Virus record (IMG/VR): IMGVR_UViG_2534682252_000028
Length of the DNA: 5,411 bases
Reading direction: 5' to 3' (one strand)
From: a virus
Taxonomy: Duplodnaviria > Heunggongvirae > Uroviricota > Caudoviricetes
Shown: positions 1,179 through 2,762 of the stretch, in pieces
How positions within the stretch are numbered: position 1 is the stretch's first letter
How the letters are laid out: each line of letters opens with the position of its first letter
Notes under the pieces: generated by a model
Seen by the model: only the letters and a program-made list of their open reading frames with translations
The model's database searches: none
Told to the model about the DNA's origin: nothing
Program-made: the position numbers and the translations under genes

Positions 1179-2762
1179 ATGACAGTAAAAATTTCTGGCG
1201 TGCTTAAAGATGGCACAGGAAAACCAGTACAGAACTGCACCATTGTGCTGAAGGCCAGACGAACCAGCAGCACGGTGGTGGTGAACACGGTGGCCTCTGA
1301 AAATCCGGATGAAGCCGGACGTTACAGCATGGATGTTGAGTACGGTCAGTACAGCGTCATTCTGTTGGTGGAGGGATTTCCTCCGTCACATGCCGGGACC
1401 ATCACCGTGTATGAAGATTCTCAACCCGGTACGCTGAATGATTTTCTCGGTGCCATGTCGGAGGATGACGTCCGGCCGGAGGCACTGCGTCGTTTTGAAC
1501 TGATGGTGGAAGAAGCGGCGCGTCACGCTGAGGAGGCGAAGAAGAATGCCGGAGAGGCGGAGACGTCCGCGAGGAATGCCGGCATATCAGCCAGTCAGGC
1601 AGAAGAGAACGCTGCAAATGCTGACACTTCAGCAGGGGATGCATCGGAGTCAGCCCGGCAGGCGGCAGAAAGTGCAGCCGCTGCAAAGCAGTCAGAGGAT
1701 GCGTCCTCGTCCTCGGCTTCTGCGGCCGCTCAAAAAGCCAGTGAGTCATCACAAAGTGCAGCAGAAGCTGAATTGTCAAGAAAGACGGCAGAAAGTGCAG
1801 CCGGTAATGCAGCCAGGGATGCAACGACCGCAACAGAAAAAGCCCGGGAGTCAGCAGAAAGCGCACAGTCAGCGGAACAAAGCAGGATAGCGGCGGAAGA
1901 GGCCGTAAACCGAATCCCCACCGTGGTGGGACCTCCCGGGCCAAAGGGGGAACAGGGGCCCGCGGGTCCTCAGGGGCCGAAGGGTGATAAGGGAGAGCGC
2001 GGTGACACCGGCCCTGTCGGGGCAACCGGCGAACGGGGACCGGCAGGTGATGCTGGTCCGGCAGGCCCGCAGGGGCCGAAAGGTGACAGGGGAGAGCGGG
2101 GAGAGACCGGTCTGACGGGAAATGCAGGTCCACAGGGTCCAAAGGGAGATACCGGTGCGGCAGGCCCGGCAGGCCCACAGGGACCGAAAGGAGAAACAGG
2201 TGCGGCTGGCCCGGTGGGGGCAACCGGACCTCAGGGACCGAAGGGCGACCCGGGGGAGACACAAATCCGTTTTCGTCTGGGGCCGGCGAGCATTATTGAG
2301 ACAAACAGCCATGGCTGGTTCCCGGGTACAGATGGTGCGCTCATCACCGGACTGACCTTTCTTGCCCCCAAAGATGCCACACGGGTTCAGGGTTTTTTCA
2401 GCATTTGCAGGTCAGGTTTGGTGACGGGCCGTGGCAGGATGTTAAGGGACTGGATGAAGTGGGCAGTGATACAGGCAGAACAGGAGAATGACATGAATAT
2501 ACTAAAAAAACTTATGCAGCGTCTGTGTGGTTGCGGAAAGCATGATGACCGTGAACACGGGGAGTTACTTACAGCACAGCTGCGACTGGGGCCGGCAGAC
2601 ATCCTGGAGTCAGATGAGAATGGCATTATCCCGGAGCAGGACAGGGTAATCATGCAGGTGGTGATACTGGATGCGGATAAAAAGCAGATACAGTGCGTGG
2701 TAAGACCGCTGCAAATCCTGCGTGCTGACGGGAGGTGGGAAAATATTGGCGGGATGAAATAG
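1179..2762 (+). CDS. stf: Side tail fibre protein (lambda Stf-like N-terminal domain, Ala/Ser/Glu-rich helical region, 36 collagen-like Gly-X-Y triplets, distinct C-terminal domain)
   Basis: 527-aa ORF with SD-like GGTGGA 5 nt upstream. N-terminus MTVKISGVLKDGTGKPVQNCTIVLKARR...GRYSMDVEYGQYSVIL...FPPSHAGTITVYEDSQPGTLNDFL matches, from memory, the conserved N-terminal domain of lambda Stf (orf-401). Followed by an A/S/E-rich low-complexity segment and an uninterrupted (Gly-X-Y)x36 block. Stop is TAG at 2760-2762. Confidence 0.8.
   Translation: MTVKISGVLKDGTGKPVQNCTIVLKARRTSSTVVVNTVASENPDEAGRYSMDVEYGQYSVILLVEGFPPSHAGTITVYEDSQPGTLNDFLGAMSEDDVRPEALRRFELMVEEAARHAEEAKKNAGEAETSARNAGISASQAEENAANADTSAGDASESARQAAESAAAAKQSEDASSSSASAAAQKASESSQSAAEAELSRKTAESAAGNAARDATTATEKARESAESAQSAEQSRIAAEEAVNRIPTVVGPPGPKGEQGPAGPQGPKGDKGERGDTGPVGATGERGPAGDAGPAGPQGPKGDRGERGETGLTGNAGPQGPKGDTGAAGPAGPQGPKGETGAAGPVGATGPQGPKGDPGETQIRFRLGPASIIETNSHGWFPGTDGALITGLTFLAPKDATRVQGFFSICRSGLVTGRGRMLRDWMKWAVIQAEQENDMNILKKLMQRLCGCGKHDDREHGELLTAQLRLGPADILESDENGIIPEQDRVIMQVVILDADKKQIQCVVRPLQILRADGRWENIGGMK
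1929..2258 (+). repeat. Collagen-like Gly-X-Y triplet repeat block inside stf (36 uninterrupted triplets with nested near-identical sub-repeats)
   Basis: Translation is GPPGPKGEQGPAGPQGPKGDKGERGDTG...GPQGPKGDPGE. GPQGPKG recurs five times (codon starts 1965, 2064, 2127, 2172, 2226). GPAGPQGPKG recurs three times. The 19-aa units GPAGPQGPKGDKGERGDTG and GPAGPQGPKGDRGERGETG lie 99 nt apart. GPQGPKGDTGAAGPA and GPQGPKGETGAAGPV are direct 45-nt tandem units. Confidence 0.9.

What the first reader, a model, noticed from the sequence alone, without database searches (positions are those of the whole stretch)
2259..2762. Stf C-terminal domain after the collagen block contains an internal duplication and a Cys-rich segment
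After the Gly-X-Y block the protein reads TQIRFRLGPASIIETNSHGWFPG... and later TAQLRLGPADILESDENGIIPEQ.... The motif RLGPAsIiEtnshG / RLGPAdIlEsdenG occurs twice about 100 aa apart, suggesting two tandem subdomains. Between them lies LMQRLCGCGKHDDREHGE. In tail fibres the distal C-terminal domain is usually the receptor-binding or self-assembly part. This region does not resemble the lambda Stf C-terminus as I recall it, so it may define a different receptor specificity.
Basis: partly seen in the sequence, partly recalled or inferred. Interest (0 to 1): 0.5.

Follow-up and report, generated by a model that had tools for sequence, protein, structure and literature searches.

The report
Frameshift-fused tail fibre and downstream gene
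The apparent "internal duplication" is real sequence similarity, but it comes from two neighbouring prophage genes (a collagen-like tail fibre and a small 89-residue gene carrying the same known end domain) that read as one protein here only because one T is missing from a run of Ts; this is ordinary.

Summary
The repeated motif is real: RLGPASIIETNSHG and RLGPADILESDENG lie 103 aa apart (BLASTP E 2e-7 as read). The 527-aa ORF is not a natural two-domain protein. The window is the whole contig AMTQ01000029.1 of the draft genome of E. coli PA7. It has T6 at 2393-2398 where its closest relatives have T7.

With the T restored, stf is a 437-aa EPclA-type fibre (PfN, coiled coil, 37 Gly-X-Y triplets, PfC). 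It ends ...QHLQVRFGDGPWQDVKGLDEVGSDTGRTGE*. One base later a separate 89-aa gene starts (2493-2762) with its own AGGAG ribosome-binding site.

Both genes carry Pfam PF06820 (Phage_fiber_C, "PfC"). After repair the two copies align over 62 aa (31% identity, E 2e-12). The segment SICRSGLV...QEND is out-of-frame PfC. The "Cys-rich" stretch is the leader of the small gene, and its second Cys and second His vary between alleles.

PfC has been shown experimentally to be a trimerisation domain that nucleates the collagen helix (Ghosh 2012). The 89-aa gene was described in phage Sp5 as ORF68, listed among the non-essential late genes (Mondal 2016).

New here: the small gene follows PfC fibres in 75 of 76 loci and is under strong purifying selection (dN/dS 0.10). 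The T-run is missing from about a third of alleles, which argues against programmed slippage. Verdict: already known, low interest.

The parts
1179..2398 (+). stf (EPclA-type collagen-like side tail fibre), the part read in the correct frame up to the homopolymer. PfN is aa 1-133 (nt 1179-1577), followed by an Ala/Glu/Ser-rich coiled-coil region and the collagen block.
   Evidence: Pfam PF08400 E 1.6e-68 and PF01391. 97.5% DNA identity to RefSeq 'prophage tail fiber N-terminal domain-containing protein', 437 aa. Architecture as in Ghosh 2012 (PMC3368898).
1929..2261 (+). Collagen block: 37 uninterrupted Gly-X-Y triplets (aa 251-361, 111 aa).
   Evidence: Gly at every third position over 111 aa. 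The length equals that of the 437-aa EPclA proteins in Table 2 of PMC3368898.
2265..2398 (+). First PfC (PF06820) copy, N-terminal two thirds, in the stf frame (IRFRLGPASIIETNSHGWFPGTDGALITGLTFLAPKDATRVQGFF).
   Evidence: The repaired 77-aa tail matches PF06820 positions 1-64 of 64, E 2.7e-39.
2393..2398 (+). T6 run, the site of the 1-nt deletion. Relatives have T7, or the in-frame variants G3T6 and T8, or no run at all.
   Evidence: Alignment to L001 and L002 shows one T missing. It is the only coding indel across 1152-5411 versus L002. Allele census.
2399..2491 (+). Remainder of the true stf reading frame (+2 relative to the ORF as read): QHLQVRFGDGPWQDVKGLDEVGSDTGRTGE, stop TGA at 2489-2491. 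It holds the last predicted strands and five of the invariant PfC residues (L, Q, D, G, W).
   Evidence: Frame translation. Invariant columns in alignments A2 and A4. Identical end in RefSeq proteins.
2400..2492 (+). Out-of-frame 'linker' of the ORF as read (SICRSGLVTGRGRMLRDWMKWAVIQAEQEND). Not a real protein segment.
2482..2486 (+). Shine-Dalgarno AGGAG for the small gene, 6 nt before its ATG and inside the stf 3' end. The stf stop lies between the SD and the ATG, an arrangement that suggests translational coupling.
   Evidence: Read directly from the sequence. The string AACAGGAGAATGACATG is conserved in all but one of the junction sequences listed.
2493..2762 (+). Separate 89-aa gene, the homologue of Sp5 ORF68 and of RefSeq 'phage tail fiber C-terminal domain-containing protein'. 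Leader is aa 1-27 (nt 2493-2573, includes LCGCGKHDDREH). Second PfC copy is aa 28-89 (nt 2574-2759).
   Evidence: PF06820 E 1.6e-35 and phrog_576 positions 1-89 of 89, E 4e-59. The exact sequence is WP_077632363.1. dN/dS 0.096. It follows PfC fibres in 75 of 76 loci.
2774..2806 (+). Strong hairpin flanked by an A-run and a T-run (AAAAAACCGGAGTCCGGCTCCGGTTTTTT), a likely intrinsic terminator closing the stf/small-gene unit.
   Evidence: RNAfold gives -24.3 kcal/mol for 2763-2815. The consensus terminator scan did not list it.

Best explanation
The 527-aa ORF is a frameshift fusion of two adjacent prophage genes.

Gene 1 is an EPclA-type collagen-like side tail fibre, 437 aa when intact. Its C-terminal PfC domain (Pfam PF06820) trimerises, sets the register of the three chains, and nucleates folding of the collagen triple helix from the C-terminal end. 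It forms the distal knob of the fibre.

Gene 2 starts one base after the stf stop codon. It has its own ribosome-binding site and encodes an 89-aa protein: a 27-residue leader plus a diverged second copy of PfC (31% identity).

In this contig one T is missing from a T7 run inside the first PfC domain. Translation therefore leaves the stf frame after GFF, reads 31 meaningless residues, and runs into gene 2 in frame. The loss is either a private mutation in a decaying prophage or a homopolymer error in a draft assembly of a roughly 10-copy repeat.

Shown: the deletion, the two-gene organisation in relatives, the domain identity, the selection on gene 2, and (from the literature) PfC trimerisation. 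Inferred: that gene 2 is a translationally coupled accessory partner of the fibre tip. It could act as its own trimer or as a template or cap for the fibre's PfC, filling the slot that Tfa occupies in lambda.
For: One T is missing relative to the closest genomes, and it is the only coding indel in 4.2 kb. The +2 frame keeps the conserved PfC end.

Repair raises the similarity between the copies from 35 aa (E 2e-7) to 62 aa (E 2e-12) and gives a full-length PF06820 match.

RefSeq annotates two genes of 437 aa and 89 aa, 1 nt apart. 74 of 77 distinct unbiased junction sequences are separate genes.

Only 1 of 696 complete genomes carrying this segment has the exact T6, and PGAP marks that copy 'frameshifted'. 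The exact 527-aa protein occurs on this one contig only.

Single-nucleotide indels are scattered all along stf in draft-derived loci.

PfC trimerisation and collagen nucleation were shown by SEC-MALLS, CD and EM in PMC3368898. The 89-aa PfC-only ORF68 downstream of the Sp5 fibre gene is described in PMC5155283.

Gene 2: dN/dS is 0.096 overall and 0.058 in its PfC part, against 0.17 for the fibre's own PfC. It is present after 75 of 76 PfC fibres. Its SD is conserved.
Against: Other 527-aa fusions with the same out-of-frame linker exist. P0123 is on 24 or more contigs, including complete genomes CP027325.1 and AP026742.1, and sits in two different prophage contexts. Fused alleles can therefore persist and are not all sequencing errors, and I cannot exclude that they make a usable fibre.

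Whether the T6 in PA7 is a real mutation or an assembly error cannot be decided here.

The proposed partner role of gene 2 has no direct support. Its Sp5 homologue is listed among the non-essential late genes. It is unrelated to Tfa. The AlphaFold monomer models are low-confidence (pLDDT 62 and 60).
Confidence: 0.9

Rival explanations
1. The 527-aa protein is the intended product: a natural tail fibre whose tip has two tandem PfC subdomains separated by a Cys/His linker.
For: The ORF is open and was annotated as 'tail fiber protein' in PA7. Several other 527-aa versions are deposited. A distant collagen-containing protein, P0259, really does have four tandem PfC-like modules.
Against: The first copy is cut after GFF. 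It loses the last predicted strands and five invariant residues (L, Q, D, G, W), which are still encoded in the +2 frame. The linker is out-of-frame PfC sequence. 74 of 77 unbiased junctions are two genes. The small gene keeps its own SD and ATG. PGAP flags the equivalent allele as frameshifted.
Confidence: 0.03
2. A programmed or phase-variable switch. Slippage at the T-run, during replication or transcription, toggles the fibre between a PfC-1 tip and a fusion ending in the PfC-2 tip, changing receptor specificity.
For: The shift occurs in a homopolymer. At least two run backgrounds gave the same fusion: T7 to T6 here and in RM8352, and a GGT7/GT8 allele shortened to GT7 in P0123. The frame of the small gene is open for 46 codons upstream of its ATG. 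Fused alleles persist in complete genomes.
Against: The run is not conserved. 30 of 95 distinct alleles read GGGCTGTTT or similar, with no run longer than T3. Fused copies are about 1-3% of junctions. An open stretch of 33-46 codons is unremarkable by chance. The fusion destroys the first domain rather than swapping it cleanly. Mondal et al. also found no frameshift signal in Sp5. T6-T8 runs are short for efficient slippage (general knowledge).
Confidence: 0.03
3. The 89-aa gene is not an expressed protein. It is a silent 'reservoir' cassette that replaces the fibre's PfC by recombination to vary host range (suggested for Sp5 ORF68 in PMC5155283).
For: Chimeras exist in databases. P0061 joins collagen directly to the ORF2-type PfC (GERGPA|DILESDENG). 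P0208 joins the ORF2 leader to the Stf-type PfC.
Against: The start codon, SD and length are conserved, and dN/dS is 0.06-0.10. This indicates selection on the protein itself. DNA similarity between the copies is limited to an 11-nt identity (2277 and 2586), and the local alignment score does not exceed shuffles. No full-length fibre with an ORF2-type tip was among the top hits, though clustering at 90% identity could hide some. Chimeras from draft assemblies may be artefacts.
Confidence: 0.12

Closest known systems
EPclA (e.g. ECs2717 of E. coli O157:H7 Sakai), the EHEC prophage collagen-like protein A of Ghosh et al. 2012 (PMC3368898)
   Same: Same architecture and sizes after repair: PfN (PF08400), an Ala/Glu/Ser-rich coiled-coil region, a 111-aa collagen block and PfC (PF06820), 437 aa in total. 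It has the same position after J and lom in a lambdoid prophage. PfC (residues 363-426) is an experimentally shown trimerisation domain and the distal 7-nm knob.
   Different: This copy carries a 1-nt deletion inside PfC. Ghosh et al. also list 'defective, frame-loss' copies in EDL933 and Sakai. The receptor, if any, is unknown for all EPclA proteins.
ORF68 of Stx2 phage Sp5: an 89-aa polypeptide made of a phage fibre C-terminus domain, downstream of tail fibre ORF67/ECs1228 (Mondal et al. 2016, PMC5155283)
   Same: Same length, same PF06820 domain, and same position immediately after a PfC-bearing fibre gene. RefSeq names it 'phage tail fiber C-terminal domain-containing protein' and PHROGs has it as phrog_576.
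   Different: Here it follows an EPclA fibre of a long-tailed lambdoid prophage rather than the EPclB fibre of a short-tailed phage. In this contig it is fused to stf by the frameshift. ORF68 is listed among the non-essential late genes of Sp5 and its function is unknown.
Lambda Stf/Tfa (orf-401 + orf-314, orf-194)
   Same: Same gene order J-lom-stf-(small gene) and the same N-terminal PfN domain (PF08400). Established knowledge: the laboratory lambda stf is itself split by a 1-nt frameshift relative to Ur-lambda, a close parallel to what happened here.
   Different: The lambda fibre tip has Collar and Phage_fiber repeats and no collagen or PfC. Lambda Tfa is Caudo_TAP (PF02413) and shows no similarity to the 89-aa protein.
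Trimerisation or registration domains that nucleate collagen-like helices (T4 fibritin foldon, Scl2 V domain, collagen C-propeptides/NC1)
   Same: Works alike: a small globular trimer at one end of a Gly-X-Y block that allows rapid refolding (PMC3368898).

Membership tests
Pfam PF06820 Phage_fiber_C (PfC) | Full-length match to the 64-position profile above the gathering score (25 bits) | tested here: met
   The small gene scores 121.7 bits over positions 1-64 of 64. The repaired stf tail scores 133.8 bits over 1-64 of 64. The ORF as read shows two stretches, the first truncated by the frameshift.
EPclA architecture (Ghosh 2012) | PfN domain at the N-terminus | tested here: met
   PF08400 matches aa 1-133, E 1.6e-68.
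EPclA architecture (Ghosh 2012) | Single uninterrupted collagen block (111 aa in the 437-aa forms) | tested here: met
   37 Gly-X-Y triplets, aa 251-361. PF01391 hit.
EPclA architecture (Ghosh 2012) | Protein ends with an intact PfC domain (about 437 aa in total) | tested here: not met
   As read, the frame is lost after GFF (aa 407) and the ORF runs on to 527 aa. The feature is met only after one T is restored. The window copy is therefore a defective EPclA allele.
EPclA architecture (Ghosh 2012) | Coiled-coil (PCoil) region of about 116 aa between PfN and the collagen block | not tested
   An Ala/Glu/Ser-rich low-complexity region of the right length (aa 134-250) is present, with only a TolA-like weak hit. 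No coiled-coil prediction was run.
EPclA architecture (Ghosh 2012) | Trimer formation by PfC | not testable with these tools
   Only monomer AlphaFold models were possible (pLDDT 60-62, all-beta). Trimerisation is known from experiments on ECs2717.
Tail fibre assembly protein Tfa (Caudo_TAP, PF02413), considered for the 89-aa gene | Match to PF02413 or similarity to lambda Tfa | tested here: not met
   The only Pfam hit is PF06820. BLASTP against lambda orf-194 gives no alignment. The position after stf is the same.
Programmed frameshift / slippage site | Slippery homopolymer conserved across homologues | tested here: not met
   30 of 95 distinct alleles have no T run longer than 3 at this position.
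Cys/His metal-binding or lipobox motif in the 'Cys-rich' stretch | Invariant ligand residues, or a hydrophobic signal peptide before the Cys | tested here: not met
   C12 and H17 are invariant, but C14 is C/Y/H/R and H22 is H/N/D in 143 copies. Leader dN/dS is 0.38. Only 11 mostly polar or charged residues precede the first Cys (read from the sequence). The stretch is modelled as disordered.

The most novel reading that the evidence does not exclude
The small PfC-only protein is a previously unrecognised kind of fibre partner. It would be a paralogue of the fibre's own tip domain, translationally coupled to the fibre, that co-assembles with or templates the PfC trimer and so functionally replaces Tfa. 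On this view, homopolymer-derived Stf-ORF2 fusions (as here and in P0123) are viable fibres with an alternative PfC-2 tip, giving these prophages a crude way to change the tip.
Probability: 0.08. Interest if true: 0.5.

Novelty: already known. Interest (0 to 1): 0.15.

Why it matters
Mainly as a caution. In multi-copy prophage regions of draft genomes, a single homopolymer indel can create a convincing "multi-domain" protein. Reading the other frames and comparing relatives resolves it at once.

The underlying biology is already described: EPclA fibres with a PfC trimerisation knob, followed by an 89-aa PfC-only gene.

The one loose end of some value is the function of the small gene. It is almost always present after PfC fibres and is more strongly conserved than the fibre's own tip. 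Yet its Sp5 homologue is listed as non-essential and has no known role. Resolving this could clarify how the side fibres of Stx and effector-carrying phages assemble or choose hosts.

Tried and rejected
- DNA-level repeat search in 2200-2770 found no families. The local DNA alignment of the two copies scored 32, equal to the best of 300 shuffles. The duplication is therefore visible only at the protein level, apart from an 11-nt identity at 2277 and 2586.
- NCBIfam gave no model hit for the small protein or for PfC.
- PDB sequence searches gave nothing below E 0.3.
- Lipoprotein signal (LCGC) and metal-site readings of the Cys/His stretch were rejected on conservation and on the lack of a hydrophobic segment.
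- The idea that the fusion is a singleton was rejected after the cluster look-up showed other 527-aa alleles.
- Enrichment of frameshifts near the 3' end was rejected. About 5 single-nt indels fall in the last 140 nt against roughly 22 in the other 1,170 nt of draft-derived loci (my counts). The excess is modest and confounded by homopolymers and sequencing quality.
- The synonymous-only differences among P0123 loci were not used as evidence of selection, because those loci were retrieved by exact protein identity.
- Many long hits in the profile search (for example P0271) are low-complexity or repeat matches and were ignored.

Full report
**1. What the window is.**
The 5,411-base window is the complete contig AMTQ01000029.1 of the draft assembly GCA_000302735.1, Escherichia coli PA7. 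It is the right end of a lambdoid prophage. It carries:
- the 3' end of J;
- lom (428-1027);
- a side tail fibre gene starting at 1179;
- three NleG-family (DUF1076) effector genes;
- a DinI-like gene on the minus strand.

The closest complete genomes are 97-97.5% identical over the fibre region and have the same layout.

**2. Checking the observation.**
The ORF 1179-2762 reads as 527 aa. The stretch LMQRLCGCGKHDDREHGE lies between them. The similarity is not chance. BLASTP of the two halves as read gives E 2e-7 over 35 aa, and Pfam PF06820 (Phage_fiber_C) reports two stretches in the ORF.

**3. The frameshift.**
Alignment with the two closest RefSeq loci shows that the window lacks one T in a T7 run; the window has T6 at 2393-2398. 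Against L002 this is the only indel inside a coding region between 1152 and 5411.

In the relatives, stf is 437 aa. An 89-aa gene starts one base after its stop codon.

The window's +2 frame from 2399 still encodes QHLQVRFGDGPWQDVKGLDEVGSDTGRTGE followed by TGA at 2489-2491. With that frame restored:
- the stf tail matches PF06820 over all 64 profile positions (E 2.7e-39);
- it aligns with the 89-aa protein over 62 residues (31% identity, E 2e-12).

The frameshift removes five of the invariant residues of the domain family (L, Q, D, G, W) and the last predicted beta strands.

The 31 residues SICRSGLV...AEQEND are therefore out-of-frame PfC. The "Cys-rich segment" is the N-terminal leader of the downstream protein.

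**4. How common the fused state is.**
- The exact 527-aa protein is on record only for this contig.
- A 71-base probe across the run matches 5,548 places in 696 complete E. coli genomes. Only one genome (O121 RM8352) has the exact T6 version, and PGAP labels that stf "frameshifted".
- Among 77 distinct junction sequences from unbiased loci, 74 are two separate genes.
- Single-base indels are scattered along the whole of stf in draft-derived loci, several per gene in some. This is typical of low-quality consensus in a repeat present about 10 times per genome.
- The fusion is not unique, however. Other 527-aa alleles with the same out-of-frame linker exist (P0123, P0126, P0131).
- P0123 is on at least 24 contigs, including complete genomes. 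It sits in two prophage contexts, one with an M85 peptidase gene downstream and one with three NleG genes. It derives from a different run background (CAGG-T7).
- So such deletions also arise and persist in nature. I cannot tell whether the PA7 deletion is real or an assembly error.

**5. Is the homopolymer a designed switch?**
This is unlikely. Among 95 distinct alleles:
- 48 have GGT7;
- 13 have GGGT6 (in frame);
- 3 have GT8;
- 30 have no T run longer than three (GGGCTGTTT and similar);
- 1 is frameshifted.

Any -1 indel in the last 140 nt of stf therefore yields a fusion. Mondal et al. likewise found no frameshift signal between the equivalent genes of phage Sp5.

**6. What the parts are.**
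After repair the fibre has the EPclA architecture of Ghosh et al. 2012:
- PfN (PF08400, aa 1-133);
- an Ala/Glu/Ser-rich region;
- 37 Gly-X-Y triplets (aa 251-361);
- PfC.

That paper showed by SEC-MALLS, CD and rotary-shadowing EM that:
- PfC (residues 363-426) is a trimer on its own;
- it has little or no helix;
- it forms the 7-nm distal knob;
- it lets the collagen helix refold rapidly after melting.

Lambda orf-314 has Collar and Phage_fiber repeats, and no alignment is found.

**7. The 89-aa gene.**
It corresponds to ORF68 of Sp5. Mondal et al. describe ORF68 as an 89-aa phage-fibre C-terminus domain, list it among the non-essential late genes, and suggest it may be a reservoir for tail fibre variation. 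New observations here:
- **SD and ATG.** It has a conserved AGGAG 6 nt before the ATG, with the stf stop between the two.
- **Linkage.** It follows a PfC-ending fibre gene in 75 of 76 loci retrieved with the fibre's PfC. The pair occurs in 296 phage records, including BP-4795, ArgO145 and many Stx1/Stx2 phages.
- **Selection.** It is under strong purifying selection. dN/dS is 0.096 overall, 0.058 in its PfC part and 0.38 in the leader. The fibre's own PfC gives 0.17.
- **Taxonomic range.** The family is essentially confined to E. coli, E. albertii and Citrobacter rodentium.
- **Not Tfa.** It is unrelated to Tfa.
- **Variable motif.** The C-x-C...H...H pattern is only partly conserved: C14 and H22 vary.

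These points favour an expressed protein that works with the fibre tip over a silent cassette. Rare chimeras do exist (P0061, P0208). However, DNA similarity between the two PfC copies is limited to an 11-nt identity, so recombination between them must be infrequent.

**8. Verdict.**
The sequence similarity is real. The "internal duplication in the Stf C-terminal domain" is the juxtaposition of two known genes, joined in this contig by a one-base homopolymer deletion. The domain is common, catalogued as PF06820, and characterised biochemically as a trimerisation domain. The small downstream gene is already in the literature. The finding is already known and of low interest. The only open question of some value is the function of the conserved 89-aa PfC paralogue.

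Noticed in passing
window 2879-3454, 3527-4156, 4238-4879 (+); 5041-5247 (-): Three tandem NleG-family (PF06416/DUF1076) type III effector genes directly downstream of the fibre unit, followed by a DinI-like gene. This is the typical effector cargo at the end of an EHEC lambdoid prophage, with the same layout as the ydfJ-adjacent prophage in O157:H7 strain 2571.
   Followed up: partly
P0259 (565 aa; source unknown): A distant collagen-containing protein with four tandem modules of about 95 aa. 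Each ends in a PfC-like segment (VVVLDADAKTATGQMGILQVRRADGTWMEIPALKG; BLASTP to the small protein E 6e-7 to 5e-4). A collagen block and another C-terminal domain follow. Natural tandem arrays of PfC-like modules therefore exist outside Escherichia.
   Followed up: partly
L084-L089 (e.g. CP027325.1 3460693-3465276; AP026742.1 1662653-1667236): A different fused allele (P0123, junction CAGG-T7) encodes an identical 527-aa protein in two prophage contexts: one with an M85 peptidase gene downstream and one with three NleG genes. It includes complete genomes and differs only by synonymous changes between contexts. This suggests spread of a frameshifted allele between prophages by recombination.
   Followed up: partly
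P0061 and P0208: Database proteins that are chimeras of the two PfC genes. In P0061 collagen is joined at GERGPA|DILESDENG to the small-gene PfC. In P0208 the small-gene leader plus RLGPADILES is joined to the fibre-type PfC. They may be real microhomology recombinants or assembly chimeras.
   Followed up: no
L037, L056, L063, L064, L067, L068, L079: These loci hold an additional degenerate copy (82.5% identity, with 1-nt and 7-nt deletions) of the last 100 nt or so of the small gene. It looks like a remnant of a further duplication.
   Followed up: no
L171 (lambda NC_001416 19650-21973): The reference lambda stf is itself annotated as two ORFs (orf-401 and orf-314). From established knowledge this reflects a 1-nt frameshift relative to Ur-lambda, a historical parallel to the defect seen here.
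   Followed up: partly
window 2259-2300 vs 2530-2580 (alignment A2): MAFFT places the small protein's leader (GKHDDREHGELLTAQ) opposite the last collagen triplets of the fibre (GPKGDPGETQI). The ancestral duplication may therefore have included the end of the Gly-X-Y block. The match is weak and was not tested.
   Followed up: no
window 4910-5044 (+): A 44-aa ORF whose end overlaps the 3' end of the DinI-like gene. RefSeq annotates the equivalent as a hypothetical protein (WP_001480712.1) in strain 2571. There is no domain hit and it may not be a real gene.
   Followed up: no
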